A DNA stretch of 64,000 nucleotides from Gemmatimonadota bacterium (lineage in GTDB: Bacteria > JBHIER01 > G020348925). Made by a program: the position numbers and the translations under genes. The stretch is from the NCBI GenBank assembly GCA_020348925.1, contig CP070758.1, positions 886,469 to 950,468 on the forward strand, written 5' to 3'. The notes beneath the pieces were generated by a model. The model was given only the letters and a program-made list of their open reading frames with translations. It was not told the origin of the DNA and did no database searches. Each line of letters starts with the position of its first letter. Positions within the stretch are counted from its first letter, which is position 1. Below, one piece after another: positions 31,836 to 48,844 of this stretch.

Positions 31836-33359
31836 CTATTGCTTCTTCTCACTGAAGATGTCCGCAGAGAAAATGAAGATTTCCGTATCCTTTTCTCGCC
31901 ACGCATCGGTCGGGAGCCCGGCTTTCAGACACGTATGCTCTAAAAATGTGTTTCGATCCCAGCCGTATTCCGTGGCCACCTGTGGCAAAAGAAGCCCGGA
32001 ATAATAGCCCTTCTTGATGTAGATCCCGTGGAGACCGACTTCGATCTCATCCGTATGTTCGATCTTTCGCAGCGGTGTCAGAGCCGATATCTCGATTTCA
32101 AGATCCTTCAGTTCACGCTCGGCTACCGGCGTAAACCGTGGATCGCTCAGCGCGGCCGATTCTGCCATTTCGCGGACAGTCTCATGCAGAGGTTTGATCG
32201 GCTCGATGTATCCGATGCAACCCCGGAGTTGACCGTGTTTATTGATCGTAACGAAAGCTCCTCGATGTTCTGCGAGGACCTCTGATGTGACGTCGAATTT
32301 TGGAACATCCTCTCCTTTCACCCTCTTCTCAATAGTGGTCCGCGCAATCTCTAAAAGAAGTTTCTTGTCCTCGGCACTCAAGCCCACTTTAACGCCCACC
32401 TCTCTCTGTTCCTCGGACGGTTTCCCATCGGCGCTCTTGTAAATAGCCACAGATGCATATCCAACACAATAGCCACTTCGTTCGGCCATGACATCATTTG
32501 AATTGGTCCGGGCAATGACCTTGGCCTTATCGGCTCCCAGCTCCTTGGCCGCCAAAAGAGCCACCGTTATGGGGCCTCCGCCGCAGGCATGATATGCTTC
32601 CTGCCCCAATCCTTTGCAGAACTTTTCAGGATTATACTCCTCGATAGCCTTGAGCGTCCGTGTGTCGGCCGCCACACATTCGTCATAGGAGTACCCGTGA
32701 TAAAGATCCGAGCTTGCCACAATAAGGACACTCCTTCCCTTCGCCGCTTTGGCTATCGCCATGGCGAGTCTTTCACACAAACTGAATGACCGATCGGCCA
32801 TGACGATAGGCACAATCTTCAACCCAGGAATGGCTTCCTGAAGAAAGGGAAGTTGCACCTCCAGGGAATGCTCTTCCCGGTGCCCGACTGCACTCGATGT
32901 GATGACCTCATCACCCTCCACAAGAGCCTTGGCGAGAACCTCATCAACCGGCACCACACCGAGCGGCGTCTCGTATCCACCCTCGGTGTAAACAGAAGCT
33001 CCTGGGAAATACTCAGAATGGCTCGGTGCAATCACGACGACGGCATCATACTTGTTCCCCGCAACCTGTTTATATGCGACTCCGGCAATCCCTCCAGAGT
33101 AGGGATAGCCCGCATGGGGGGAAATCAGGGCCAGTATTTCACCATCGATTGCGGCGGATTCGGCCCTCTGCAGAAATCCATCGACCTGATTTTTTAAAAC
33201 CGTTGGATCAGCAGGATAGAAAGCTCCTGCAACCGCCGACTTGCGAACCTTCTTGGGATCAATATCCTGTGGGCTCATGAACGACACCCCCTTTGAAGAC
33301 TTACAAAAAACCAAAGTCAAAATACAAAATCCAAAAAGTACAACGATTCGCTTAATCAT
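31836..33359 (-). CDS. MEMO1 (AmmeMemoRadiSam B) - AMMECR1 (A) fusion protein with signal peptide, copy 1
   Basis: PHAGYPYSG, EHSLEVQLPFLQ, ASSDL, CG; GAFVT...LRGCIG...DPRF...LLLPQVA...C.KAGLP; leader MIKRIVVLFGFCILTLVFC. Confidence 0.92.
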   Translation of the reverse strand: MIKRIVVLFGFCILTLVFCKSSKGVSFMSPQDIDPKKVRKSAVAGAFYPADPTVLKNQVDGFLQRAESAAIDGEILALISPHAGYPYSGGIAGVAYKQVAGNKYDAVVVIAPSHSEYFPGASVYTEGGYETPLGVVPVDEVLAKALVEGDEVITSSAVGHREEHSLEVQLPFLQEAIPGLKIVPIVMADRSFSLCERLAMAIAKAAKGRSVLIVASSDLYHGYSYDECVAADTRTLKAIEEYNPEKFCKGLGQEAYHACGGGPITVALLAAKELGADKAKVIARTNSNDVMAERSGYCVGYASVAIYKSADGKPSEEQREVGVKVGLSAEDKKLLLEIARTTIEKRVKGEDVPKFDVTSEVLAEHRGAFVTINKHGQLRGCIGYIEPIKPLHETVREMAESAALSDPRFTPVAERELKDLEIEISALTPLRKIEHTDEIEVGLHGIYIKKGYYSGLLLPQVATEYGWDRNTFLEHTCLKAGLPTDAWREKDTEIFIFSADIFSEKKQ

Positions 33360-34927
33360 CTCTCACCAAAAACCTGGGTGGCGTAAACGTAAAGTTCCGC
33401 TCCATCCCTCCATGCCCCTGAAGGCAGGCCGGCTTTTCGACACAAGTGCTCCATCTCCTCCTCTTTCGTCCAACCCGCCTCGAGTGGCACTTCCGGAAGG
33501 TAGGTCGCTGCCCGTCCTCCCTTTGTCAGAATAATACCATGTCTTCCCAGTTCAAACTCATCAAGATTATCAATCTTGTAAACATTGCTGAGATAGACGG
33601 ATATTTTGATCTCAATATCATCGAGCTCATCCACTGAGAGCGGTGGAAAACGGGTATCCTTCACAGCAGCGGCTATGGCCCGATCAGGTATGAGCTTGAA
33701 GAGGGGAACATCATGACCATGATAGCCGATACACCCTCTAAGAAGACCCTGTTTCGTAATCGTAACAAACACCCCTCTCTTTTCGTTCAAAACCGGATGC
33801 TCAGGCTCGTACTCGGGTGTTCGCCCTGTCCTCACGTATGTCTCAATAGTCTCTCGTGCCATGCGTAATGCCACCTGCTGCGCTTCCTCATCTAGAGGTT
33901 CAAAGGTAATTTTCTCGTCTTTCATATCACCCTGATATACTGCTACTGCTCCATAGCCGACCACTCTGTCTCGGTCTCCGTAGGGAGTATCCCCTGAATT
34001 TGCATATTTTAAAATCTTTACGGCATTCGCTCCAAGGCCACGGGCAGTTATCATTGCGACAAGGACCGCCTTCAATCCACAGAACGTGCAGCTTACATTT
34101 CGATACCCAGCTCCCATAATCTTGGAATCCGTCCGAACGAGCCGCTGCACATCAAAGCTTTCAACTGCGGCCAACATCTCCTGATCTATCGACACCGCCT
34201 CATCGTATGTCGGATAGTGAGACATATCCGAACTCGCAATGAGAACCACATCATCTCGTTGGCTGATCAGATCAACGAGAGCTTCGGAAAGATGCACACA
34301 ATCCTCAACGCTACAAAGCGGCCCAATGACCACGGGTACAAAATCGAATTTTGGCAAGACTCTTTGCAGAAATGGCAATTGAATCTCCAAACTATGCTCG
34401 TTTGCGTGAGCCTCAGGAGCAAAGGAGACAAGGTCACAGGTTGAGATGAGGTGATGTGCCAGTTGGGTATTAATAGGCACGACACCTAAAGGGGTTTCGT
34501 ATCCTCCTCTCGCGTACACCGAAACACCTCGGAACGAATGACGATGGCTTGGACCGAGGAGCACAACTGTTCGCACCCCTGAGCCCCGAAGGAGCTTCAG
34601 GGCGTGCGCGGCTACGGAACCGGAATACCTGTATCCGGCATGGGGAGCAATGAGTGCTACAAGCTCTCCCTCAACTGTTTCATCAGGGGCTTTGCTCAAA
34701 TAACCGTCGACTACAGCCGAGAGCTCTTCCCGATCACCGGGATACCATGAGCCGGCAATAACGGATTTTCGAATTTCCCGATCGATTACATCTGCGTTGC
34801 TCGCACCCTTCCCGGAATCGGAAGATCCGCGACAGTCCAGTGAAAAAAGAGACGCACAGCAACTCACTGCGAATAGAACAGCCAACAACGATGGTGCTTT
34901 TGACCAAACCTTGATTTTCTGAGCCAT
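33356..34927 (-). CDS. MEMO1-AMMECR1 fusion protein with signal-like leader, copy 2
   Basis: PHAGYRYSG, EHSLEIQLPFLQ, ASSDMSHY, LRGCIG, DTRF, CRKAGLP; ATG 34927 directly after the ychF stop; ATGA overlap with copy 1. Confidence 0.9.
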   Translation of the reverse strand: MAQKIKVWSKAPSLLAVLFAVSCCASLFSLDCRGSSDSGKGASNADVIDREIRKSVIAGSWYPGDREELSAVVDGYLSKAPDETVEGELVALIAPHAGYRYSGSVAAHALKLLRGSGVRTVVLLGPSHRHSFRGVSVYARGGYETPLGVVPINTQLAHHLISTCDLVSFAPEAHANEHSLEIQLPFLQRVLPKFDFVPVVIGPLCSVEDCVHLSEALVDLISQRDDVVLIASSDMSHYPTYDEAVSIDQEMLAAVESFDVQRLVRTDSKIMGAGYRNVSCTFCGLKAVLVAMITARGLGANAVKILKYANSGDTPYGDRDRVVGYGAVAVYQGDMKDEKITFEPLDEEAQQVALRMARETIETYVRTGRTPEYEPEHPVLNEKRGVFVTITKQGLLRGCIGYHGHDVPLFKLIPDRAIAAAVKDTRFPPLSVDELDDIEIKISVYLSNVYKIDNLDEFELGRHGIILTKGGRAATYLPEVPLEAGWTKEEEMEHLCRKAGLPSGAWRDGAELYVYATQVFGER

Positions 34928-34928
34928 G

Positions 34929-35070
34929 TTACACATGGAAACGGTAGAAGATGATATCTCCGTCCTGAACAACATAATCACGCCCTTCTGACTGAAGCAA
35001 TCCTTGATCACGGGCATGAGACCAACCACCAGCCTGTCTGAATATCTCGAAAGGTACCACCTCAGCCTTA
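34929..35070 (-). CDS. ychF: YchF ATPase, C-terminal fragment (truncated by gap)
   Basis: KAEVV...EGRDYVVQDGDIIFYRFHV* is the characteristic YchF C-terminus. Confidence 0.88.
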
Positions 35071-35170: not shown

Positions 35171-38100
35171 CACCGGCTCCTTGTCCCACGGCCCGTCCGG
35201 CCAGATCGTCATCCGACACCGACGCGTTTTATACCAGGTCGGCTCCGGCTCCTCAAAACAGAAATTCATGTCCCGCGTCCACTCCACGACAATATTCCGA
35301 GCCCACCAATTGTGATGGTCAGGATGATGGTGATACGCACACGCACACGCCAACGTGTCAACCCCCCCAGCAGGCACTGCGATGAGCTCACCACACAAAG
35401 CTCCCCCTTCCGGCGCAGTAAACAGCCCCCACGGCGCCTCGTAAAAGGCCACATTCACGAACTCATCCTCATCACACTCGTTGCGGAATATTGCCTCCAC
35501 AGTGTAATCGTCACACACACACGGATACTCACCGCGGTACGGATGGCTCCACGTTATATCCGGCTCCTGAATCTCGACACATCCTGCATTGTATTCCAAA
35601 CAGACCGCCACCATGTACTCATACCCATCGAAGCACTTCCAGTACCCGTTCTCACCATTCCAGATCCAGGAGTAACTCTCCGAATGACCGACGTCCCCCA
35701 GAATCCTCGGCCTGTCCGCACCATCCTTCATCTTCCACACGATGTAGAAACACCGCTTGGCCGGAATCTGTATACACGGACCATCACCCAACTCCACCGT
35801 CTCCCACTCCCAGTTGCCAATAAAACTGCCGGAAGGAATCATATCCAACGAATCGGCCAGCATCGGATCCCCATCATAGGGATAGCACACAGGACATCCA
35901 TCCTCCGGCCCCAAATAGACCCACAGATCGACCTCGCCCGGATCGTACCACTGGAACGAAACCGACGTCAGCCGGGCCTCTCCACCGGGATTGTAGAATC
36001 CCACGGCGTACAGATCCTGATCCGGCAGTCCGCTCCCTTCCAGAAAATCCTCAGGATCGCCCGCCACATGGTGGTCCAAGCACGTATCGCCCCAGGCCAC
36101 TGCACAGGGATAGAGCCACGGATAGAAATCGACGAAAGCCCCACGGGTCTCGATCACCTCATCCCCGTGACCCGAAGGGTTTCGGACCGCATGGTACGGA
36201 CCGGTGCACGAGCACCACCAGTTGCGCTCGGCATCCACATCAAAGAAGCTGTCGTTTATCAAACCATATGTATTATTGCAGAAATAGTTATGATGGATCT
36301 CGGCTCCCTCCGAATTCATCGCCACTTCGATGCCCGTATGCCCGTCCGAAAAGGTAAAACCGTGGTTGCTTTTCCCGATGATCACATTGTCGGCATCGAT
36401 GGCAATAATCGTACCCTGGCCTCCATCCACCACCAGGGTCACCTCAGGACCACCGGTCGAATAGACCTCCAGACCGTCCAGGGTGATGGTCGCATTGGTG
36501 GGATACCATCCCGGATAGACCCAGCACTCACTGCCGCTGACATTGGCAAAGGCATCGGCCAGGTTGTCAAAGCCGTTGCAGTCTTTAATAATGTCCTCAC
36601 CGTACCGACCCGTACCGAGATAGGCTCCACACACTTCCACCAGCCAGTCGTCGTCCACGTAAACCACGGTGAAGATGGGGTTGGCCGTCACGGTGAAATT
36701 GCACGTGGACGTATTCCCGGCTGCGTCTGTGGCCGTGCAGGTGACGGGATGAGGATCGACGCACACCTGAAAGACAGTGCCTGACGGCGGATCGCATGCG
36801 CACGTTACGCCCGGACAGTTGTCTGTGCACACCGGAATATCCCAAGTGGCCTCAACATCGCATTCTCCCGGCGCAGCGGAGACCGTTATATCATCCGGAC
36901 ACTCGATTGTTGGATCCTGGTTATCCTCAATGGTCACGTCGAAGGTGCAGAAATCTGTGTTGCCGGCCGCGTCCGTGGCCGTGCACGTGACCTGCGTCGT
37001 GCCCAAGGGGAACGTACTCCCGGAAGTGGGCGCACAACTGTACGTCACACCGGGACAATTATCGTCCACAAGCGGAGTCCAGGTAACCACCGCCTCACAC
37101 ACATCCGGATCGGTATCCTGCACGATGTTTTCCGGACACGTAATTGTCGGCGAGGTACCATCGTCCGCCAAATCCTCTATGAAACCGACCCGCATTGTCG
37201 GCCCCGCAGCCGGGAAATCGCCAATCCATACTCCGCTGGGGGTAGCACCGTACCAGTTTGCGTTGCACGGTACCGACGTATCGCGGAAATTGTACTCGGA
37301 TGAAACCCATAAATCATCCGCATCACCCCTGTTGACCTCCGCATCCAGATCGTCCGCATCTGCAACGTGCGATGTGGGGTGTTCTGCCGTTTCCACATCG
37401 ACCCCTTTGTGCGCTTCATCAACATTGACATTGTTTGTACCGCTGGTGATCCAATCCTGAACTTTCGATTCATCTATGTGATAGATCACGATACCCTCAT
37501 CCGGGTACGTGCCGTCCGGTGCCACCGGGGCACCGACTGACTCGTAATACGAGCTGGCCGGATGCCTATTTTCAATTAAGAAATATTCATCACTTGAATG
37601 AGACGGATCAATGAGAATATACGCCTCGGCAATTGTTTCCGCAGCGTCCACATCGTAGTAACCACATCCTGTCACCACGGTGGGATTCAGCCATCCCAAC
37701 TGGATCTTGCACCAGGCGGTAAAATGTGAGAACGTCCACGAGCCCCCGCCCATGAGTCCGTACTGTCCTATACCCTCTGAACCATCGTCTGTGTCGTACA
37801 GATCAGGCAGACCGAGATCATGACCCAACTCATGAACGTAGCTACCAATGTGTCTCTCCTCGTGGGTGTTATTGAACTCCCCCTCAACCTCGACGCCGTC
37901 CCCGGTTACCACCGAACCAATAGTCCACCAGTGGGACGCTCCACCTTGATCTCCTGACACAATGACGAAAATCGTCAACTCTTCATTCGTCACAGTACCG
38001 TCAGCAGGGTTTGTATCATACGGAGAAAAGTCAAAATCAGCATCAACATCCTGTATAGCCTCAGTCACCACAGGTCTTTTGTCGGTGGTCCACTGACTCT

Positions 38101-38521
38101 GGTCGTATGTGGAGGGATACCAACCCAAAACATCACCCGGAATGTACGTGAAATTTCCATACGAGACCTCAGTGAAGTAGTCTCTCGCACTGGGCGGACT
38201 CGTATCGAAAAACCTGTCCTCAAAATAGGCAATGGTGTGAGCAGGATCAGGGGCAACGTCCGAAAGCTCCACCAGGATAACCAATAGCTCCCGTGTTCCA
38301 GTCACAGGGACAGGGGGCGGGCCTTCAACCTCTTCCCCTATTCCGGCTTTGGCAAGTATCATATTCAGGGTTCTGTAATGCTTGGGGGGTTGTATATAAT
38401 CAGGCCCTTCCAGATCTCCCAGAACAATCTTGCGATCCTTGTCCCGTTCCGAGGGTGAGACCGTCTGTGTCAGTGATAACAGCATGATCGATATGATGAA
38501 CAGTACAACAATCTTATTCAT
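35171..38521 (-). CDS. Secreted M6 (immune inhibitor A) metalloprotease with two HYR domains, a short beta-helix and a shared unrecognised Cys/Trp-rich domain (3' end truncated)
   Basis: Signal peptide; HELGHDLGLPDLYD, GLMGGGSW, EYFLIENR; PTITCP...SGSTFPLGTT.VTCTATDAAGN; AERNWW; final ~300 aa homologous to the 46091 protein. Confidence 0.9.
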
Positions 38522-38651
38522 GGTTGTAACCTCATTTAAAAAATCCTTTGAGGTTCAAAATGTTCACTTTGAACCTCTTTCTCCTCATCTCTCTTTTCCC
38601 CAAACCCAAAACAAACCATTGACATTTCAGACATGTTATCTTTCTCTGTCC

Positions 38652-38679
38652 AATATATCATTGGTAAAATTTTTGTCAA
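38652..38679 (-). promoter_or_regulatory. Sigma70-like promoter of the M6 gene
   Basis: TTGACA-N16-TATATT(GGA); resembles the promoter at 45762-45790. Confidence 0.55.
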
Positions 38680-38846
38680 GTTCTAAATGGGGATTCCCTT
38701 GGATCCTCCGAGAGCTCTTCTTCGGTCCCTCTTCTTCGCTCAGAACAGGTTCTTCGACTTTGAAACCTTCGAGACGGTTACACTTATCTCTTTCAGCAAA
38801 CCATTCTTCTCAACGGAGCGCAAGCGCTTTTTCACCCGTCACCACC

Positions 38847-39758
38847 TCAACCCATGAGTATGGCCATGATCGCTTTCTGTATGTGGAGACGGTTTTCCGC
38901 CTGGTCGAAGACAATCGAATGTGGACCGTCCATCACCTCATCCGTAATCTCTTCACCCCGGTGAGCCGGCAGACAGTGCATGACTTTCACGCCCTTCCTG
39001 GCCAAACCGACCAACCGATCGTTCACCTGGAAGTCCTGAAACCTCGCCGCTCTCTCCTCCTGTTCCGCTTCATGTCCCATACTGGTCCAGACGTCGGTGT
39101 AGATCACGTCGGCTCCCTTCACGGCCTCTTGTGGATCATGGAGGACTCTGATCTCGCTCGTGCCGCAATGCTCAGCGGTTTTCAAGACGTCAGGATCAGG
39201 ATCATATCCCTCGGGAACGGCCAGGTGGAGCACCATGGGAATTTTGGACGCGAGGTTGATCCACGAATTGGCCACATTATTGCCGTCGCCAACCCAGGCC
39301 ACTTTCAGGTCATCCAAAGTTTCACGATGCTCCCAGATTGTGAGGATATCCCCCATGACCTGACACGGATGGAAAAGATCATCCAGACCATTGATAACCG
39401 GCACCGTGGCGTATCGGGCCAACTCCAACATATGGCTATGGGCAAAGAGTCTGGCCATGAGCCCATTACAATACCGCGAGAGGACTCTGGCCACATCGGC
39501 CACTGATTCCCGTTCCCCGATCCGAATCTCATTCGGTGAGAGGTAGAGGGCTGTGCCTCCCAACTGGTACATACCCACCTCAAAGGAGACCCGCGTACGG
39601 AGGGATGGTTTCTGAAAGATCATGGTCAATGTCTGTCCGGCCAGTGGCGTATGGGGTTCTCCCTTCTGTGTCTTGGCTTTTATTTCCTTGGCCGTGTGCA
39701 GCAGGTTCCAAACTTCGTCGGCAGAAAGATCCGCAATTGATACAAAATCTTTTTTCAC
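38847..39758 (-). CDS. argF: Ornithine carbamoyltransferase
   Basis: KPSLRTRVSF, HPCQ, GDGNNVA, DVWTSMG, HCLP, QAENR. Confidence 0.95.
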   Translation of the reverse strand: MKKDFVSIADLSADEVWNLLHTAKEIKAKTQKGEPHTPLAGQTLTMIFQKPSLRTRVSFEVGMYQLGGTALYLSPNEIRIGERESVADVARVLSRYCNGLMARLFAHSHMLELARYATVPVINGLDDLFHPCQVMGDILTIWEHRETLDDLKVAWVGDGNNVANSWINLASKIPMVLHLAVPEGYDPDPDVLKTAEHCGTSEIRVLHDPQEAVKGADVIYTDVWTSMGHEAEQEERAARFQDFQVNDRLVGLARKGVKVMHCLPAHRGEEITDEVMDGPHSIVFDQAENRLHIQKAIMAILMG

Positions 39759-39852
39759 TCTATGCTCCTTGCTTTAAGTCCCAGTGTGAGAATGTTCGAT
39801 TGTCGAAGGGTGAAGAGGTGCCGTTTTTCAACGTGCGGAATACAAATACTTT

Positions 39853-41223
39853 TCAGAGAATATACCGACTGAGATCTTCATCTTCGATGATATCCTGGAG
39901 CGTTTCATTGACCATCGCCCGGGTCACGCGTATCCTTTTTCGCTTCGAGTCAGGAACCGAGAAGAGGATATCCTCCAGCAGAGTTGTCAGAATGGTGTGG
40001 AGCCGGCGCGCTCCGATATTTTCCATGCGCTCATTCACGATGGTCGCTGTCTCGGCGACCTCTTCGATGGCCTCGTCGGTGAACTGTATGTGGACTCCCT
40101 CCGTTTTCAGGAGCGCCGTGTATTGCTTCAACAAGGCATTCCTCGGCTCGGTCAGAATGCGGATAAAATCCTGCGCCGTCAATCGGCCCAATTCGACCCG
40201 AATGGGGAACCGGCCTTGAAGTTCGGGGACGAGATCGGATGGTTTCGAAACGCTGAAGGCACCGGCGGCGATGAAGAGGATATGATCTGTTCGCACGAGT
40301 CCATATTTCGTGGCCACGCTCGTACCCTCAACGATGGGCAGGATATCTCTCTGGACACCCTCTCTGGAGACGTCCGGTCCGTGTGAGGCTTTCCCCTCCC
40401 CCGCAATCTTATCGATCTCGTCTATAAAAATGATCCCTACGTTCTCCACTCGCAGCTTCGCCTCCTGGATCACTTCCTCCATGTCCACCAACTTCTGCGC
40501 CTCCTGCTGGGCGATCATCCGATATCCCTCTGGGACGTTCACCTGGCGACGTTTCGTTCGTTTGGGCATCATGCCCCCGAACATCTCTTGGATATTGATC
40601 CCCATTTCCTCAATACCGATGGGCGAAAAGATCTCGACGATGGGATACCGGTCGTTTGGCATTTCCAATTCAAGGGTGCGATGGTCCAGATTGCCCTCGT
40701 GCAATTGTCGGCGAAGCCGTTCACGCGTTCTGGCATAGCGTTCCTGAGCCTCACGCTCCTTCGCAGGATCATCGAAGTTTTCTCTTTTTTTGGGGGATGC
40801 AGGAAAAAGGAGATCGAGAATCTTCTCTTCGGCCAGCCGATTGGCTTCCTCCTGCACAGACTGTGTCCGCTCCATCTTTAACATGGTTACGGCCAAGTCC
40901 ATGAGATCGCGAACCATGGATTCCACATCCCGTCCGACGTAACCCACTTCTGTGAATTTTGACGCCTCCACTTTGACAAAAGGTGCTCCAGCCAAATTCG
41001 CCAACCGCCGGGCTATTTCGGTTTTGCCAACGCCTGTGGGCCCGATTAAGATGATATTGTTGGGCATGATCTCGTCCCGCAGTTCGCCTTCGACTCTCTG
41101 TCGGCGCCAGCGATTTCTCAAAGCGATGGCGACCGCTTTTTTGGCCTTATCCTGACCGATAATGTATTTGTCCAGTTCGGCCACAATCTGTTTAGGCGTC
41201 AGCTGTTCGATCCGTTCAAGCAT
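39853..41223 (-). CDS. hslU: ATP-dependent protease ATPase subunit HslU
   Basis: [42 protein letters not shown]-terminal DLSRYIL. Confidence 0.98.
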
Positions 41224-41225
41224 AG

Positions 41226-41750
41226 CTACAGTTCTTCGATCACGATGTGGCTATTCGTGTAGACGCAAATTGACGCCGTGATCTCCAACGCTTCCCTCAC
41301 AATAACCCGGGCGTCCAAGGAGGAATATTTCAAAAGGGCTCGGGCAGCGGCAAGGGCGTACGGAGCGCCAGAGCCTATGGCCACAATGCCATCGTCCGGT
41401 TCAAGCACATCGCCACTCCCGGAAATTATGAAAATGTGTTCTTTGTCGACAACGGCCAAAAGGGCTTCGAGGCGGCGCAGATATTTGTCCGTGCGCCACG
41501 TCTTGGCAAGCTCTACGGCCGCCCGGGAAAGGTTCCCGTTGTACTTTTCAAGCTGTCCCTCCAGTTTATCGAAGAGCGTAAAGGCATCGGCTGTGGCTCC
41601 GGCAAAGCCCGCCAAGATCGTATTATTGTACATGCGGCGTATTTTATTGGCTTTTTCTTTGACAATGGTCTCGTTGAACGTCACTTGACCGTCACCGCCC
41701 AGAGCAACCTTTCCTTTATGGCTGATTCCAATGATGGTCGTCGATCTCAT
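41226..41750 (-). CDS. hslV: ATP-dependent protease subunit HslV
   Basis: [30 protein letters not shown]. Confidence 0.98.
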
Positions 41751-41791
41751 CTTTTCCGATCCTTGTCAGTCATTCGCATCCAGGATCACGT

Positions 41792-42697
41792 TCATGCCCT
41801 TGGATGGGCTTGATCGTACACTTTTTTCAAACGGTCCAGCGTAACATGTGTATACACTTGCGTTGTCGAGAGGCTCACGTGACCGAGCAACTCCTTGACG
41901 GCCTTCAGGTCCGCCCCGGCATCGAGCATATGCGTGGCGAAGGTGTGTCGCAGCACATGGGGACTCACCTTCTGAACGTGAGAAACGAGCCTCAAGTATT
42001 TTTCGACTATTTTCTGTACACTCCGAGCCGACAGGCGACCACCGTTCCGATTGAGAAAGAGTGCCTCGCTGGTGCCCTGTGAACCCTCTTGTCTGAAAAG
42101 TTCATGGCGCTTCTCCTGGTACGCTCTCAGAGCTTCAAGCGCCTTTCTCCCCACCGGTACAATTCTCTGCTTCCTCCCCTTTCCTATCACTTTGACTATT
42201 TCACCGACAGGATCAATGGACGATATGTTCAACCCGATAAGTTCGGTCAGCCGAATACCGGTGCTGTATAACAATTCGAGGATGGCTGCGTCGCGGAGTC
42301 CCAAAATGTCACTTCGATTCGGAAGCTCCATGGCCCTGGAGGCTTGAACAACATCCAGAAAGGAGGGCAATGCCTTTTCGATTTTCGGAGTGGACAGATG
42401 GGCTGCTGGATTAAATTCGATCACTCCTTCTCGACACAGATATTTCAGGAAGGATCTGATACACGCCAACTTTCGTGCAATCGATTTCTTCGTCAGCCCC
42501 TCCTTCTGAAGCCAGGCCAAAAAATGGCGCACCGCCAACTTATCAATATCCTTTGGTCGAATCCTGTCCGTTGCAAGTTGCTCTTCCAGAAAAGCGTCGA
42601 ATTGAGCCAGGTCAATCTCGTACGCTCTCACCGTATTTTCAGAAAAATTTCGCTCGAATGTCAAATAGAGAAGATATTTCTTCATATGTTTTTTCAC
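41792..42697 (-). CDS. xerC: Tyrosine recombinase XerC
   Basis: RDAAILELLYSTGIR, GKGRKQR, SPHVLRHTFATH, LLGH...TTQVYT; sits between topA and hslV. Confidence 0.9.
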   Translation of the reverse strand: MKKHMKKYLLYLTFERNFSENTVRAYEIDLAQFDAFLEEQLATDRIRPKDIDKLAVRHFLAWLQKEGLTKKSIARKLACIRSFLKYLCREGVIEFNPAAHLSTPKIEKALPSFLDVVQASRAMELPNRSDILGLRDAAILELLYSTGIRLTELIGLNISSIDPVGEIVKVIGKGRKQRIVPVGRKALEALRAYQEKRHELFRQEGSQGTSEALFLNRNGGRLSARSVQKIVEKYLRLVSHVQKVSPHVLRHTFATHMLDAGADLKAVKELLGHVSLSTTQVYTHVTLDRLKKVYDQAHPRA

Positions 42698-42759
42698 GAT
42701 ATTCGTTCGCAGGTTTCGGGAGAGACACAGCCAAAGATGCAACACAGGTGATGTCTCTC

Positions 42760-44156
42760 TCAAGAATCGCTCTTGAGCTCACATTCCCCCTTGCATGCGG
42801 GACATTGAAGAAACTCCCCTCGGTCTTTCTTTTTTTTCACGACAAGATACGGGTTCTTGCAGAGGGAACACGTTTGGGCTACCGGCCGATCCCAGAGGGC
42901 GAAGGTGCAGGTGGGATAACGGCTGCATCCGTAAAAGATCTTTCCCTTTTTCGTTCTGCGCTCCGTGAGGAAGCCGTCGCAACCCTTTTGAGGACAAGAC
43001 ACGCCGATACTGATTGCACGAGTATAATCGCATTTCGGATAGGCTGAACATGCCAGAAAGCGACCGAAACGCCCGCTCCGGATTATCATTTTGGCCCCGC
43101 ACTTTTCGCACACTTCGTCCGTTTCCGATAGTTGATCCTTCTCATCCAATGATCGTGTATTCCGACATTCGGGAAATCCAGAGCACGCCATAAACCGTCC
43201 GTTTTTCCCCCATTTAATGACCATGTTGCGGCCACATTTCTGACACGTCTCTTCCGTCCATTCGATGGTCGATTCTTTTAATTCGCTCTTTTTATCGTTC
43301 GCCTCCTGTAAGGCGCGATTGAATGGTACATAAAAATTATCGACGACAGTAACCCACTGATCTTCACCTGCTTCGATGCGGTCCAGACCTTCCTCCATTT
43401 TGGCTGTAAACGCAACATCGAAAATATTGGGAAAATTTTTAACCAGAATTCTGTTCACGGTTATTCCCAAATCCGTCGCATACAAATGACGTTTTTCTAC
43501 AGTGACATACTTGCGGGTCTTGAGCGTACTGACAATTTGCGCGTACGTGCTCGGACGCCCAATTCCCTTTGCCTCGAGTTCTTTCACAAGGCTTGCCTCA
43601 GAATACCTCGGGGGTGGCTTCGTAAAATGCTGGTCAGGTGTCAGTCCGAGCAGCGCCAGCTCTTCACCCACGTTGAGAGGTGAAGGAATGTTCGTCTCGT
43701 CATCGCTTTTTTTATCGTCTGTGCCTTCTTCATAGACCATTGTGAAACCTCGAAAATGCACGACGGAACCCGAGGCTCGAAAAAGATAAGAATCAGCCCG
43801 AACGTCGACCGTGGTCATATTGAAAATGGCTGGTTTCATCTGTGAGGCAATACATCGGTTCCATATGAGTTCGTATAGCTTCAACAGATCCTCGGTTAAG
43901 AATTTCTTGAGTTTCTTCGGTGGACGGAACATAGAGGTAGGACGAATGGCCTCATGAGCTTCCTGAGCACCTTTCTTCGATTTGAATACATTCGGTTTCT
44001 CCGGGAGATAGTCCGCTCCATACATTTCAAAGATATAGTGCCGAACCGCCTCCAGAGCCTCATCGGCAATTCGAGTCGAGTCGGTTCGCATGTATGTTAT
44101 CAACCCCACACTGCCCTCAGAACCTATCTCAATACCCTCATAGAGCTGCTGGGCAA
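42760..44156 (-). CDS. topA: DNA topoisomerase I (5' part lost in gap)
   Basis: GLITYMRTDS, QEAHEAIRP, GIGRPSTY, C-terminal C4 zinc ribbons. Confidence 0.97.
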
Positions 44157-44256
44157 NNNNNNNNNNNNNNNNNNNNNNNNNNNNNNNNNNNNNNNNNNNN
44201 NNNNNNNNNNNNNNNNNNNNNNNNNNNNNNNNNNNNNNNNNNNNNNNNNNNNNNNN
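44157..44256. other. Assembly gap (100 N)
   Basis: N run. Confidence 1.
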
Positions 44257-45443
44257 ACGAGATCGCGTTGTACTCGACGCCGCGGCATCCGATAATTGTG
44301 CCCAATCCACCCAGTTCGCATTGCGAGCTGCCGCCCGGGTACAGTGATGTGGGCTTGTTGTCGATCGTGACAGTGACCTTTGAGATTTTGCCCGGAGCGC
44401 CGGCGGGTGAGTGTGCGGACATCTGGTACGGGACGGTGATTTTGGACGGGCTGCCGGACTGGGAGGGTCATCCCAAGGAGCCGCTGTGTTTGAAGTTTGA
44501 GGACAAGGGTCAGATCTGTTACGGTGGGTACATCGTGCCCAACAAGTGCGACGTGACGGGCTTGTCCGCTGCTCCGGATACGATGGTGACCCTGATGGAT
44601 CTGTTGGCCATCTTGAACCACATCACCGGAAAGAAGAGCCTGGGGTCGTTGGAGGACGTGTTTGATCCGACGACGCTGATCTGGGCGGCTGATGCCAATG
44701 GTGATGGGCTCGTCAACATCATCGATTTGATGAAGTGCATCAACCGGGCTGTGGGTGTGTGCGATCCCAAGGTGGCTGCCGCCGAAGTGGGCTTGGGCGA
44801 TGCGGTCGGAGTATCGGGCCGGACGGTGGCGGTGCCTGTGGATGTGACCTCGGAGCAGGATGTGGCCGGAGTGTTGCTGCGGTTCCGGTACGATCAGGAG
44901 GCCCTGTTTGCAGGCGAGGCCGAGTTGACGGACCGGGCAGCGGGCATGGATGTTGTCACCAAGGTGATCGGGGATGAGCTGGTGGTCTTTGTCTCCAGCA
45001 TGAGGGGCGAGGCCATTGAGGCCGGTGGGGGTTCTGTGGTGCGGGTACCTTTCACCCTGAGTGGCGATGTCTCCGAGGTGGGGATCGAGGTGGTTGAGCC
45101 TGTGGTCTTCACCGTGGATGAGGCCATTGTTTTCGGTCACGGCTCGATCTTTGTGGTTAAGTCAGAGGATCTGGTGCCGGCCGAGTACGGTCTGGCCCAG
45201 AACTACCCGAACCCGTTCAACCCGGTGACGTCGATCGCCTACAGTCTGCCTCAGGCGGCCAAGGTCAAGGTGTTTGTCTACAACACGTTGGGACAGGTTG
45301 TGGCCGAGCTGGTGGACGGTGATCAGGAGGCCGGCCATCATGTGGTCACATGGGACGCGGCGGATATGGCCAGCGGCGTCTACTTTTACCGGATCGAGGC
45401 CAACGACTTCACGGCTACCCGGAGGATGGTGCTGATGAAATAG
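44257..45443 (+). CDS. C-terminal part of a secreted modular protein: cohesin-like, dockerin, cohesin-like, FlgD/T9SS-like sorting domain
   Basis: CDVTG...VTLMDLLAILNHI...AADANGDGLVNIIDL (dockerin); V.VPV.V.....VAG...RFRYD...G.G.VV...F (cohesin-like); LAQNYPNPFNP...MVLMK. Confidence 0.88.
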
Positions 45444-45461
45444 TTGGGATGTAATAGAGAG

Positions 45462-45501
45462 AAAAAAGCCGCCCTGGTTTTGGGACCGGGGCGGCTTTTT
45501 T
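45462..45501 (+). terminator. Intrinsic (bidirectional) terminator
   Basis: aaaaaagccgccctggt-tttggg-accggggcggctttttt. Confidence 0.9.
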
Positions 45502-45761
45502 ATGTGGTCTCCGGTGTCCTATTGAACGTTTTCTATGGGAGAAGACTTTCGAAGTTTTGAAAACTTCACAGGTCCTGAGAAATGATGACGGTCCGCCGCG
45601 AAGTCGTCAAAAGGAGCGGCGCGGATATCGCAATCAAAAGGGAGAAATACTGTCATCTTCCGAGAGCACTAAGACTCCCAACATTCTGAAAAATATTGGG
45701 TTTTTTCAATTCACGTGGGAAGTGAATTCCAGCTCTGACATTAAAAAAGTGTAAAAAATAC

Positions 45762-45790
45762 TTGACAAAAAAATTCATAGGCCCTATATT
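45762..45790 (+). promoter_or_regulatory. Sigma70-like promoter about 300 bp upstream of the 46091 gene
   Basis: TTGACA-N17-TATATT. Confidence 0.7.
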
Positions 45791-46090
45791 GGATCCGATT
45801 TTGTCAGATGCCTTGTATCAAAAGGCGTTATATCGTTTTGTTTGGGAACAGTTGGAGAGCACGAGTACAAGAGTAAAAGAGAGAGTATTTCTGCATAAAA
45901 ACGTTTGATTTTTGAAAAACTTGCGTCGGCTTATTTTGGAAAGGGGGTGAAGCACAGAGAGAGTTTCTGAGGTGTTGTCAGGAGAATTCTAAAAACCTGG
46001 CTCGTGTTGTAATGCTTCTCTTACGCCGAGCCGGGGAAGATACAGCTCGTTCAACCTATTCACACTTTTTTATATCGAGGAGAAAGAACC

Positions 46091-48844
46091 GTGACAAAAA
46101 AAGTGAGTCTTTATCTAACTGTTGTGCTTCTTGTGGCGGGATCAGCTTGGACGCAGTACCCCACGAATCAACGAACACCCTGCTACCCTGCCTGCTGGGA
46201 CACGTGCTGCATAAACCATGATTTGGACGGGGATGCGGAGGACTTTCTGATAGGTCCTCCGGGTGATCCGGATCCGACGAACGACTGGTATGCCGTCGGT
46301 TTCTACAATCCCTGCGGCAGGGCCCGGCTGACGTCGGTCTCCTTCCAGTTTTACGATCCAGGATCGATTAACCTGTATGTCTTTTTGGGATTTGAGTCAC
46401 CGGGTCAACCGTGTCCGCCGTGTATCCCCCGCGATCCCGGGCAGCCGTGGCTGGAGGATCAGCTCTTGACCCAAGTTGGTGTGGAGCCCTTTATCGGCAA
46501 CTGGGAGTGGGAGAAACGCGACCTTCTGGAGAACTGCATCATCATTCCGGCCAAGCGATGTTTTTACGTTATGTGGCAGATCAACGATGTGCAGACGGCC
46601 AAGCCGAGAATTCTGGGCGATTACGGCCATTCGGAATCTTACTCCTGGTTCTACCACGCAGAGGCGGAGGACCCAGCTGGTAATGTGGTCGGCCAGTGGA
46701 AGTGTTTCCCCGGGTACGAGTACATGGTGGAGGTCTGCCTGGACTACACCCCTGAATGCGTCGAAATTAATAGGCCGTTCGGTGAGCCGGACATCACCTG
46801 GAGACATACCTATCGCGGTGAGTATCCCTGTATCTGCGACGACTACACGGTCGATGTTGCCTTTCATCCCATGCACGACTGCGTCTGTGAAGAACTTGCG
46901 CCCGGTGCACCAACTGGTTTTTGGGTTAGACTCGTTCAATTCTACGAGGCGCCCTGGGGCCTGTTCACCCTGCCGGCGGGTTGGCCGACCACTGAGCCTT
47001 TGGCCGGTCCTGTCGATTATCCTGTTCTGTGTGATGAAGAGGAACGGTTTCCACTATCGGTCAATTGTGAGTATCATCACCACCCAGATATGCTCAACTG
47101 GTGGGCCCGGAACATCTTCATCACCTGGTGGGGGAAGACGTGGATTTCGACACCTGTTGGGGGAGAATGTGTCAGAGATACGATGCGATACGCGCGGCGA
47201 TGCCGGATGACAATCTGGCCTGACGGGCCGTGGGACAAGGAGCCGGTCAGGTGGGGCTTGACGCCCATCACGATTCCTGTGTGGAACGATCATCCGGTGG
47301 AGATGAGTTATGAACTGCACGTGGAGATACCGGAGGAGCTCGAAGCCCAGGGCTGGCGCGCCGATCTGAGCGAGACGGCCTTCACTTTACCCCCCAGCCA
47401 ATTAATCCCTCCCCCTATAATTTCAATGAAGGATGTCTACCTGTCGGTCTGGCCTGATGGCCCTGAGCCTGAGGGGCCGGTCATGATCAAAGTGAAGGCC
47501 TTCAAGTGCACGGGCGAGTGGGGCGAGGTGGAGATCGAGTTCATGCCCTATCCGAAGCACTTCTACCTTTGGCCTGACGGTCGTCCGGTAGAGCCGGTGC
47601 ACGTCGAGAACATCCGCTGGAGCCCGCGGTATCCGTGCGAGAACATGCCCTACGATGTGTGGACCACAGTGGTCAACGACGGGCCCAACAGCGCCTATCC
47701 CAAGATCAGCTTCGGCCTGGCGCCGTGGGGGTTCTACTTCCCGCCCTTTGTGGATGCTGTCTACGATACGGTGCTGTGGGGCGGCATCGGCGGCTTCGCC
47801 AGCCAAATCGTAGCGCCGTATCATCACAAGATCCCGTGGTTTACGTACGAGGATCTGGAGTGCAACTACTATCAGCAGTACGCCCGGAACATCGTCATCG
47901 ACTATCCGGTGATACGCCGTCATTGCCCAGATCCCGATTTTCCAACCTGGTGGACGGTGGAGGATTCGACGACGGAATATTTGCGGGACTGCGAGCGGTG
48001 GATGTGGCCGAAGCACCGGTGGGTGAACGGGGATACGACCTGGAGGCCGGTGATCGTTCCGGTGCCTATACACAACGACGAGCCCTTTCCTGTTCTTTTC
48101 TGGATGTGGGTGGAGTCGGTGCCGGTTGCTCCCAGCGGTGAGGTGTGGGAGACAAGTTTTGATGGAGGGGCTCAAGAGATAGAGGTCGATGGCGTTCTCC
48201 CAGGGGAAGTGGAGGAGGTCAATCTGTCCATTATCCCCAAGGGGGATGGACCGCCCACTGCGTTGCCGGCCCACGTGGTGGTGGGCGCGGCGAAGTGGGA
48301 TTATTGGGGACTAGGACATCAACCTTGCTTCTATGACACCACTTTTGTTGACATCAAGTTCATGCCGTTCACAGGCATGTGTATCCGGGACACCTCCGGG
48401 ATCAGGGTCGGCTACAAGTATGCCGAGACCTGCGGTGGTCAGGATCCGACTCTGCTGCCCGGCGATCAGGTGGGTATCGGCCTGATGCTGGACAACGAGT
48501 ACCCGGTCTCGGCGGCGCAGATCGATCTGTGGTACGAGTCGGCCTACATGCGGGTGGTGGACGTGCAGACGACGACGCGGACTGCCGGCTTTGAGCTCGT
48601 GGAGCGGGAGTTGGCGCCAGGGACGCACGAGATCGCGTTGTACTCGACGCCGGCCCATCCGGTGATAATTCCGAACAATACGCCACCGATATCGCATTGC
48701 GAGCTGCCACCTGGGTACAATGATGTGGGCTTGCTGTCGATCGTGACGGTGACCTTTGAGATTTTGCCCGGAGCGCCGGCGGGTGCGTGTGCGGACATCT
48801 GGTACGGGACGGTGATCCTGGACGGGCTGCCGGACTGGGAGGGC
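46091..48844 (+). CDS. Secreted Cys/Trp/Pro-rich modular protein of unknown function ending in a cohesin-like domain (3' end truncated by gap)
   Basis: Signal MTKKVSLYLTVVLLVAGSAWT; core shared with the M6 protein; two internal repeats; last ~70 aa nearly identical to the start of the 44257 fragment. Confidence 0.88.
48627..48843 (+). repeat. Direct repeat of 44257-44467 (paralogous gene segment)
   Basis: acgagatcgcgttgtactcgacgccg...ggacgggctgccggactgggaggg at both contig ends, similar but not identical. Confidence 0.92.

What the first reader, a model, noticed from the sequence alone, without database searches (positions are those of the whole stretch)
35171..48844. Paralogous family of modular secreted proteins: variable N-terminus, shared unrecognised Cys/Trp-rich core, cohesin-dockerin-cohesin and sorting domain
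Seen: three gene pieces on two contigs interlock. The M6 protease gene (38521 to 35171) and the 46091 gene share ~300 aa (YAVGFYNP.G.ARLTSVSFQ.YDPG, FIGNWEWE, IPAKRCFY, PRILGD.GHSESYSW, YRGEYPC.CDDYTV, FYEAPWGLFT, RRCRMTIWPDGPWDKEPV). The end of the 46091 gene matches the start of the 44257 fragment, which continues dockerin-cohesin-QNYPNPFNP. Known: cohesin-dockerin pairs assemble cellulosome-type complexes, and M6 is a zinc protease. Inference: at least two, probably three, paralogs have the plan [optional enzyme]-[core]-[cohesin-dockerin-cohesin]-[sorting domain]. Members carrying both docking partners could self-polymerise into a surface lattice or a proteolytic, non-cellulosomal complex. 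I do not recognise the core as a named domain.
Basis: partly seen in the sequence, partly recalled or inferred. Interest (0 to 1): 0.72.

Follow-up and report, generated by a model that had tools for sequence, protein, structure and literature searches.

The report
Mosaic surface stalks with swappable tips
These three gene pieces belong to a family of 15 related genes in one uncultured sediment bacterium; each joins a different front end to the same long stalk and a plug-and-socket foot, and they likely display varied binding tips and dock secreted enzymes on the cell surface, a variation on known cellulosome-like coats.

Summary
A probable 16th copy is missing from the assembly.

The 'unrecognised core' has no Pfam, NCBIfam or PDB sequence match and is rare (10 outside hits among 1.84 billion representatives). 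Its predicted folds are common: a jelly-roll like the Cwp84 lectin-like domain (Z 13.7-14), then two copies of an Ig-like pair. The second cohesin has a clear cohesin fold (Z 17). The genome encodes SprA, PorU and PorV.

Only 1 of 15 tips is a recognised enzyme (M6), so a proteolytic complex is not supported as the family's role. The dockerin-cohesin-sorting tail ends 35 proteins here, among 289 dockerin and 99 cohesin proteins, so carrying both partners does not imply self-polymerisation.

The paralogs are recombination mosaics, and tips, linkers and stalk segments are reshuffled.

Best reading: exported adhesin/adaptor stalks with swappable tips in a genome-wide cohesin-dockerin coat. This scan reported the same family earlier on other DNA of this genome (e1-9828951).

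The parts
35171..38521 (-). Gene A, 5' part (1117 aa, open at contig end): signal peptide, M6 protease tip, 2 HYR, linker, X, U1
   Evidence: signal peptide read by eye
37520..38275 (-). M6 metalloprotease domain; HExxHxxGxxD zinc motif at 37802-37834
   Evidence: TIGR03296 148 bits, cut-off 110.8; motif
36680..37162 (-). Two HYR (Ig-like) domains
   Evidence: PF02494, 2 stretches
36104..36664 (-). Linker type 1 (beta-helix-like), shared with three other G000 paralogs and three outside homologs; an alternative tip branches off at 36580 in public contigs
   Evidence: weak NosD/Beta_helix hits; no Pfam match on its own
35585..36103 (-). Domain X of A: predicted jelly-roll, like the Cwp84 lectin-like domain
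   Evidence: AF2 model; Z 13.7, rmsd 2.9, 146 aligned to 4ci7
35177..35584 (-). Domain U1 of A: predicted Ig-like beta-sandwich; the contig ends at the U1/V1 boundary
   Evidence: Z 10.4 to an Ig-like domain of a GH2 enzyme, 5t9a
44259..45443 (+). Fragment C: 3' end of another paralog (which gene it completes is unknown)
44259..44534 (+). Second half of cohesin-like module C1
   Evidence: hhalign C1 vs C2 93.5%; genome-trained cohesin HMM
44535..44768 (+). Dockerin; first Ca-loop with a 5-residue insertion, second loop canonical
   Evidence: PF00404; alignment; loop survey
44766..45170 (+). Cohesin C2
   Evidence: PF00963; 93%-identical paralog models as a cohesin, Z 17.3 to 2vo8
45171..45443 (+). 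T9SS type A sorting domain (CTD)
   Evidence: TIGR04183 46 bits, cut-off 23
45462..45501 (+). Intrinsic-terminator-like hairpin after C (A-tract, 11-bp GC-rich stem, T-tract)
   Evidence: read by eye; the automatic scan did not list it
45762..45790 (+). Sigma-70-like promoter match (11 of 12) upstream of B
   Evidence: consensus match only
46091..48844 (+). Gene B, 5' part (918 aa, open at contig end): signal peptide with no tip, then X-U1-V1-U2-V2-C1
46187..46753 (+). Domain X of B (jelly-roll, lectin-like fold by homology to the modelled paralogs)
46754..47590 (+). Repeat 1: U1 (46754-47242) plus V1 (47243-47590)
47591..48373 (+). Repeat 2: U2 (47591-48040) plus V2 (48041-48373), homologous to repeat 1
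   Evidence: hhalign U1-U2 98.6%, V1-V2 99.1%
48374..48844 (+). Cohesin-like module C1 of B, cut by the contig end

Best explanation
A, B and C are pieces of a 15-gene family in which a variable N-terminal tip sits on a shared stalk of about 1,160 residues (predicted lectin-like jelly-roll, two Ig-like pairs, cohesin-dockerin-cohesin, type IX sorting domain); the proteins are likely exported and held on the outer surface, where they would act as adhesin/adaptor stalks. In order: (1) Inferred: Sec export, then passage through SprA/PorV, with PorU removing the CTD and anchoring the protein so that cohesin C2 lies nearest the membrane. (2) Inferred: the two cohesins capture some of the genome's 289 dockerin-bearing proteins, while the protein's own one-sided dockerin ties it to other scaffolds. 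(3) Predicted: the X-(U-V)2 core is a rigid, cysteine-rich spacer, possibly glycan-binding, that holds the tip away from the cell. (4) Shown: tips, linkers and stalk segments are reshuffled among copies; recombination between paralogs is the inferred route. The M6 gene is the one member with a recognised enzyme as its tip.
For: Family and plan: 15 core-bearing genes in G000. All 5 whose 3' end is linked to the core end in Coh-Doc-Coh-CTD, as do the outside homologs P0006, P0009 and P0021. Tips differ: M6+HYR, TIGR04275 propeller, FG-GAP, VWA+DUF11, MAM-like, DUF7901, Cys-rich repeats, or none. Folds: X matches 4ci7 at Z 14.0 and 13.7 in two models; U is Ig-like at Z about 9-10; C2 is a cohesin at Z 17.3. 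Export: SprA, PorU next to PorV, and 8 PorV-family matches are over cut-off. Network: 289 dockerin, 99 cohesin and 256 CTD proteins by genome-trained HMMs; 177 dockerin proteins with an intact 3' end have no CTD. The family's second dockerin loop carries II, VI or IL at the recognition positions (11 of 11), like the genome-wide IL/VL/II. Reshuffling: for 9 genes with both segments, AU tests reject each segment's tree on the other's data (p 7e-58 and 2e-5), and 0 of 40 codon permutations reach the observed conflict (274 vs maximum 95). L027 has the same propeller-like tip as one G000 paralog (60% identical) on the other linker type, and P0009 and the c94 gene pair DUF7901 with different linkers. 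P0012 fuses X directly to a cohesin-like module. Public contigs from two runs (X2, X4; two studies) show another in-frame tip branching at 36580, and A's 1222-bp stalk contig has about twice the depth of B's unique part in X1 and X2.
Against: No binding, anchoring or expression was measured. C1 has long insertions and mixed model confidence (10-residue pLDDT means about 41-86 over residues 690-860); it was not fold-searched alone. The dockerin's first loop has an insertion in 8 of 9 aligned copies and low pLDDT. A GldM/PorM motor subunit was not found, though the controls also gave nothing. A jelly-roll fold does not show glycan binding: PBCV-1 capsid and phage baseplate domains tie with Cwp84 (Z 13.2-13.6), and the Cwp84 paper says the domain may have another function (PMC4089489, passages). 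Several tips have no family match and could be unrecognised enzymes. DsbB and VKOR were not found in this 96%-complete genome, so the disulfides are unexplained. Contig depth is a poor copy-number measure, and X1 may be the source sample.
Confidence: 0.55

Rival explanations
1. Self-polymerising lattice: each protein's dockerin binds a cohesin of another family member, so two sockets and one plug per chain build a branched, S-layer-like or matrix network of mixed tips.
For: The valency of 2 cohesins plus 1 dockerin allows branching. The dockerin sits only a few residues from C2, which probably bars binding C2 in cis (inference). The foot is the most homogenised part of the family (83-100% nt among several copies), as a shared interface would be. 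The recognition letters suggest one specificity class.
Against: 35 proteins share the Doc-Coh-CTD tail and 289 carry dockerins with similar recognition letters, so family dockerins would compete with many others. If each chain is anchored through its CTD, cross-links add little (inference). Proteins with both modules are proposed as adaptors or scaffoldins elsewhere (PMC6461901, PMC9012536, passages).
Confidence: 0.15
2. Dedicated proteolytic complex: the family builds a protease machine centred on the M6 member.
For: A has an intact M6 zinc motif and scores over the TIGR03296 cut-off. Earlier scan notes describe many dockerin peptidases in this genome (not counted here).
Against: A recognised catalytic domain occurs in 1 of 15 tips; two members have no tip. 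A probable second copy of A's stalk carries a different tip. Four other M6-like loci lie outside the family.
Confidence: 0.1
3. Ordinary domain shuffling: a generic secreted-protein tail and a spacer were duplicated in one lineage; C1 and the half-degenerate dockerin are structural spacers, and the proteins are plain T9SS adhesins with no docking role.
For: The tail is generic in this genome. The core was not found in G001, the only same-family genome (87% complete), which still has 69 cohesin and at least 121 dockerin matches. The first dockerin loop is non-canonical.
Against: The second loop and helix are nearly invariant in all 9 aligned copies. The whole plan is kept in homologs only 35-50% identical. 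C2 keeps a clean cohesin fold.
Confidence: 0.15
4. Assembly artefact: the copy number and mosaic pattern come from strain mixture or chimeric joins in a fragmented MAG.
For: 206 pieces, and most family genes are broken at near-identical patches. One contig (c94) is circular. No public contig bridges B from U1 to V2.
Against: Contamination is 0.52%. Paralogs differ by 25-50% nt over most of X-U1. The longest exact tract between 14 aligned modules is 130 nt, below the 140-nt overlaps at contig ends. A separately assembled contig (45401-47211) bridges C's end to B's start. Outside homologs show the same shuffling.
Confidence: 0.05

Closest known systems
Cellulosome-like complex proposed for Ca. 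Stygibacter, Cloacimonadota (PMC8542988; passages read)
   Same: Non-cellulolytic cohesin-dockerin system in an uncultured lineage; scaffoldin-like protein with a C-terminal domain cited to the T9SS literature; dockerin-bearing peptidases and glycoside hydrolases.
   Different: There, one 3,755-aa multi-cohesin scaffoldin with CBMs. Here, 15 paralogs, each with two cohesins, one dockerin, a conserved spacer core and a variable tip, in a far larger system.
'Planctosome' adaptor of Nemodlikiaceae (PMC6461901; passages read)
   Same: A single secreted chain with dockerin, HYR and cohesin, proposed to bind peptidases; hypothetical, like this one.
   Different: Anchoring there is proposed through a lamin-tail-domain protein, not a T9SS CTD. 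The passages read mention no X-(U-V)2 core or paralog array.
ANME scaffoldin-like proteins with one dockerin and up to five cohesins (PMC9012536; passages read)
   Same: Both partners in one chain, non-cellulolytic setting; the authors stress that presence alone does not reveal function.
   Different: Archaeal; the passages read mention no T9SS CTD and no shared stalk with variable tips.
Cwp84 lectin-like domain, PDB 4ci7 (PMC4089489; passages read)
   Same: About 170-residue jelly-roll placed between an N-terminal functional domain and a surface anchor; best structural match for X (Z 14.0 and 13.7).
   Different: 9-12% identity; no Pfam match for X; X is cysteine-rich; glycan binding is unproven in both.
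Clostridium perfringens non-cellulosomal cohesins (2vo8, 2jh2, 2w1n) and type I cellulosomal cohesins
   Same: C2 superposes at Z 17.3, rmsd 2.2 over 130 residues.
   Different: 14-20% identity; hydrophobic recognition letters in the partner dockerins; T9SS-type tail.

Membership tests
Cellulosome (canonical) | Cohesin modules with the cohesin fold | tested here: met
   C2: Pfam over cut-off and Z 17.3. C1: only hhalign 93.5% and the genome-trained HMM.
Cellulosome (canonical) | Dockerin with two calcium-binding loop-helix repeats | tested here: inconclusive
   PF00404 over cut-off in C. Second loop canonical in 11 of 11; both loops canonical in 1 of 11 by a strict pattern that also passes only 115 of 242 dockerins on cohesin-free proteins.
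Cellulosome (canonical) | Cellulases or cellulose-binding modules on the scaffold | tested here: not met
   No glycoside hydrolase or cellulose CBM over cut-off in any of the 15 family genes. Genome-wide cellulase content was not tested.
Cellulosome (canonical) | Calcium-dependent cohesin-dockerin binding | not testable with these tools
   Needs a binding assay.
T9SS type A cargo | N-terminal signal peptide plus C-terminal type A sorting domain | tested here: met
   TIGR04183 over cut-off in C and in all 5 G000 genes with a linked 3' end. Signal peptides read by eye only.
T9SS type A cargo | Host encodes translocon, shuttle and sortase (SprA, PorV, PorU) | tested here: met
   all over cut-off; PorU lies next to the best PorV.
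T9SS type A cargo | Host encodes the PorL/PorM motor | tested here: inconclusive
   TIGR03517 found nothing in G000 or in any control genome; PorL, PorK and PorN were not searched.
M6 metalloprotease (gene A only) | HExxHxxGxxD zinc motif and M6 domain score | tested here: met
   activity not testable here.
Cwp84-type lectin-like domain | Jelly-roll fold of about 170 residues | tested here: met
   Z 14.0 and 13.7 from two models, tied within 1 Z with viral jelly-rolls.
Cwp84-type lectin-like domain | Sequence-family membership or conserved calcium ligands | tested here: inconclusive
   No Pfam or PDB sequence match; residue-level ligand mapping was not available.
Antigenic-variation cassette arrays (silent copies, one expression site; recalled) | Promoterless or truncated silent copies | tested here: not met
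   Members have their own starts and Shine-Dalgarno-like sequences, many 3' ends have terminator-like hairpins, and B has an 11/12 promoter match. One truncated remnant was seen (c177).

The most novel reading that the evidence does not exclude
A recombination-driven combinatorial surface-display system: one uncultured lineage keeps 15 or more genes on a lineage-specific, cysteine-stapled stalk, exchanges tips, linkers and stalk segments between copies, and cross-links the products through their own cohesin-dockerin feet into a T9SS-anchored, self-assembling mixed lattice that also loads hundreds of dockerin enzymes.
Probability: 0.13. Interest if true: 0.8.

Novelty: new variant of a known kind. 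Interest (0 to 1): 0.45.

Why it matters
If true, it extends cohesin-dockerin assembly from clostridial cellulosomes to a T9SS-based coat in a barely sampled lineage. It also shows how such a coat can be diversified, by swapping tips on a conserved stalk. The X-(U-V)2 core is a new sequence family, and the C1/C2/dockerin set makes a small, directly testable binding panel. It is not categorically new: the parts are known folds, proteins with both partners are proposed elsewhere, and no function is shown.

Tried and rejected
1. Complex prediction of C2 with the family dockerin gave no verdict (score 0.10, mark 0.32); not used as evidence either way.
2. ESM Atlas returned nothing usable for X, U1-V1 or P0005.
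3. Foldseek on the whole 1164-residue model gave only low-TM chains of beta-sandwiches such as ciliary central-pair proteins and alpha-2-macroglobulins. On X-U1 it gave GH2 enzymes through their jelly-roll-plus-Ig arrangement, TM 0.20-0.27; this does not imply enzyme activity. V, U2 and C1 were not fold-searched alone.
4. PDB sequence search found 0 matches for U-V and one chance hit (E 0.4) for X.
5. I suspected X was related to DUF7901 or to the jelly-roll-like tip on contig c78; hhalign gave 0.1% and 3.9% with profiles of 1-2 sequences, so this is unsupported.
6. I suspected U was CARDB (recalled resemblance); Pfam gave no CARDB match in the core.
7. The core was not found in 40 of 40 other genomes searched, in G001 with two profiles, or in genome contigs (0 of 33 pattern hits confirmed). 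In metagenome contigs 1 of 179 was confirmed.
8. Word-based protein searches added only P0026 beyond known hits and did not recover the missing 16th copy.
9. No Rfam match in the window or 8 loci. No RNA holder listed.
10. Treating B and C as one overlapping gene was rejected (91% nt identity with gaps, and C lies upstream of B).
11. One search picked the wrong ORFs for c43 and c155, so those rows are unused; c43 was corrected and c155 was left out of it.
12. Literature: six searches listed no paper on this core or family. The library lacks most subscription papers. Peer et al. 2009 was not held. PMC4959524 gave two passages that did not bear on natural adaptors. No supplements were read; those of PMC8542988 and PMC9012536 could list similar architectures.


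Full report
1. The observation. The window is a chain of contigs separated by 100-N runs; the genome G000 has 206 pieces in 5.04 Mb and is 96.3% complete with 0.52% contamination. Gene A (38521-35171, minus) and gene B (46091-48844, plus) run off their contigs, and fragment C (44259-45443) starts at a contig edge. All seven quoted motifs are in both A and B, and their shared core scores 862 against at most 64 in 200 shuffles. B's end and C's start are 91% identical in DNA with gaps, so C ends a different paralog that lies directly upstream of B. A separately assembled public contig spanning 45401-47211 confirms that junction. The genes between A and C look like argF, hslU, hslV, xerC and topA (names recalled from their sequences, no call) and are unrelated.

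2. Family size and arrangement. The core occurs in 15 places in G000. Contig maps give 7 gene starts with no family gene assembled upstream, 7 gene ends followed by non-family DNA, and 8 head-to-tail junctions, one of which is the self-circular contig c94. About half the genes are therefore directly linked in tandem. Three are complete on one contig, and two more can be linked through 140-nt end overlaps; all five end in cohesin-dockerin-cohesin-CTD. A stops exactly at the U1/V1 boundary. All 13 other G000 genes assembled beyond that point continue into V1, and contigs from runs X3 and X4 extend 320 and 141 bases past 35171 (those letters were not shown). That A carries the rest of the module is thus a strong inference, not a direct reading.

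3. Distribution. Among 1.84 billion representatives only 19 proteins match the core. Nine are G000's own; the other 10 are metagenome proteins 35-79% identical to G000 genes. The core was not found in 40 other genomes, nor in G001, the only same-family genome, which is 87% complete and has 69 cohesin and at least 121 dockerin matches. All 9 listed runs holding part of the A contig are sediment metagenomes from 3 studies, 2 of them with half the words or more.

4. What the core is. It has no Pfam or NCBIfam match and no PDB sequence match. Profile comparison splits it into X (about 175 aa) and two copies of U (about 140) plus V (about 105): U1-U2 98.6%, V1-V2 99.1%. AlphaFold2 on a complete paralog's module (22 rows, mean pLDDT 70.6, pTM 0.39) and on A's own X-U1 (20 rows, pLDDT 77.5, pTM 0.65) gives all-beta domains. 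[quoted passage not shown] U1 matches Ig-like domains at Z about 9-10. The V1 region has one match to an Fn3-like protease domain at Z 9.4. The core is therefore a new sequence family made of common folds. In Cwp84 the lectin-like domain also lies between a protease and the surface anchor, and its authors left its function open (PMC4089489, passages). B's core is 3.4% Cys, 5.6% Trp and 11.7% Pro.

5. The foot. C2 is a cohesin (Pfam over cut-off; Z 17.3, rmsd 2.2, 130 aligned to 2vo8). C1 is cohesin-like on weaker evidence (hhalign 93.5% to C2; detected by a genome-trained cohesin HMM). The dockerin has a 5-residue insertion in loop 1 in 8 of 9 aligned copies and a nearly invariant second loop and helix. 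Its loop-2 recognition letters (II, VI, IL; 11 of 11) resemble the genome-wide IL/VL/II. The foot is not special to the family: my HMMs find 289 dockerin, 99 cohesin and 256 CTD proteins, 56 with both partners and 35 ending Doc-Coh-CTD, 11 of them from this family. Pfam alone gives 81 cohesin and at least 148 dockerin matches (only 150 of 527 dockerin candidates were scored). G000 encodes SprA, PorU beside PorV, and 8 PorV-family proteins; GldM was not found, with uninformative controls.

6. The tips. The 15 tips are: M6 plus two HYR (A); none (B and c6); a TIGR04275 propeller; FG-GAP plus TSP3; VWA plus DUF11; MAM-like; DUF7901 plus Cys-rich repeats; linker only; and five with no clear family match (tips L028 and L029 were scanned with Pfam only). 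A recognised catalytic domain is present in 1 of 15. Two linker types sit between tip and X: a beta-helix-like one and a TSP3-flanked one.

7. Reshuffling. B and the c121a paralog are 51-69% identical in DNA over X-U1 but 82-93% over U2-C1, while B and c6 are closer over X-U1 (54-79%) than over V2 (50-64%). For the 9 genes that have both segments (6 of 15 left out because they end earlier), trees of X-U1 and of late U2-V2 reject each other (AU p 6.8e-58 and 2.1e-5), and 0 of 40 codon permutations approach the observed conflict. The longest exact tract between 14 aligned modules is 130 nt, shorter than the 140-nt contig-end overlaps, which makes chimeric joins an unlikely cause (inference). Outside G000, L027 puts one paralog's propeller-like tip (60% identical) on the other linker, and P0009 uses DUF7901 with the linker that c94 lacks; P0012 joins X straight to a cohesin-like module. 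In public contigs, 35195-36416 forms one 1222-bp piece at depth 23.3 (X1) and 14.9 (X2), against 11.7 and 7.18 for B's unique part. Runs X2 and X4 show a different in-frame sequence branching at 36580 that is absent from G000. This points to a 16th, nearly identical stalk with another tip, and explains why the assembly breaks at A's end. Contig depth is a weak measure, X1 and X2 are one study, and X1 may be the source sample. Members have their own Shine-Dalgarno-like starts, many have terminator-like hairpins, and B has a near-consensus promoter, so they look like separately expressed genes and not silent cassettes.

8. Mechanism. Shown: the architecture, the copy number, the mosaicism and the export genes. 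Predicted: the folds. Inferred from established T9SS and cellulosome biology (recalled): export, CTD removal and surface anchoring by PorU; capture of dockerin proteins by C1 and C2, which would suit the 177 dockerin proteins with intact 3' ends that lack a CTD; and tethering of the stalk's own dockerin to other scaffolds. I put this adhesin/adaptor model at 0.55, self-polymerisation at 0.15, plain adhesins with inert modules at 0.15, a dedicated protease machine at 0.10, and artefact at 0.05. Whether these cohesins bind this dockerin remains open.

9. Comparison and novelty. The closest described systems are genome-based proposals: the Ca. Stygibacter scaffoldin with a CTD (PMC8542988), the planctosome adaptor with dockerin, HYR and cohesin (PMC6461901), and ANME proteins with one dockerin and several cohesins (PMC9012536); I read passages of each. 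It works like a cellulosomal adaptor fused to a fibrillar adhesin, but it is not a cellulosome member, since no cellulases or cellulose CBMs are on these chains. Six literature searches listed nothing on this core. Verdict: real, a new variant of a known kind, interest 0.45.

Noticed in passing
L016:1-8765 (contig c94): The contig has identical 140-nt ends, and its two ORF pieces (943 and 1806 aa) overlap across them, giving one family gene of about 2,700 aa on a circle. No second copy of its 5' part is in the genome. Either collapsed tandem copies or an excised circle.
   Followed up: partly
window 36387-36580: Public contigs show a second variant with 15 differences at 36417-36508 and a different in-frame sequence beyond 36580, absent from the assembly.
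   Followed up: partly
window 37920-38539: In run X1, A's M6 tip is thinly covered (depth 2-5, one piece with 15 differences) while the upstream contig is at 11.6. This could be strain variation of the tip or the 31% of the run not read.
   Followed up: no
L027:2647-2649: An in-frame TGA early in domain X of this outside homolog, at a position that is not Cys in the paralogs; pseudogene or sequence error.
   Followed up: no
L025:8715-9560 (contig c177): A 282-aa ORF with only partial dockerin, C2 and CTD of this family, with no core upstream; a likely remnant.
   Followed up: partly
G000 whole genome: DsbB and VKOR were not found although these secreted proteins have many conserved cysteines. 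An ORF on contig c13 looks CcdA/DsbD-like (by eye).
   Followed up: partly
L011:10369-16219 and beyond; L018:1-8300; L021:1-9000: Family genes sit beside other giant CTD or cohesin proteins (1686, 3057, 3688, 2144, 1880 aa), forming surface-protein islands.
   Followed up: no
window 31836-35070: Two adjacent genes on the neighbouring contig that look like AmmeMemoRadiSam B-A fusions (recalled resemblance); the second is fused to A only because the N run is read through.
   Followed up: no
3' ends of family genes, e.g. window 45462-45501: A shared GC-rich hairpin flanked by A- and T-tracts follows six of the 16 3' ends printed (C, c121a, c40, c126, c120, c13); a second hairpin type follows three others.
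   Followed up: partly
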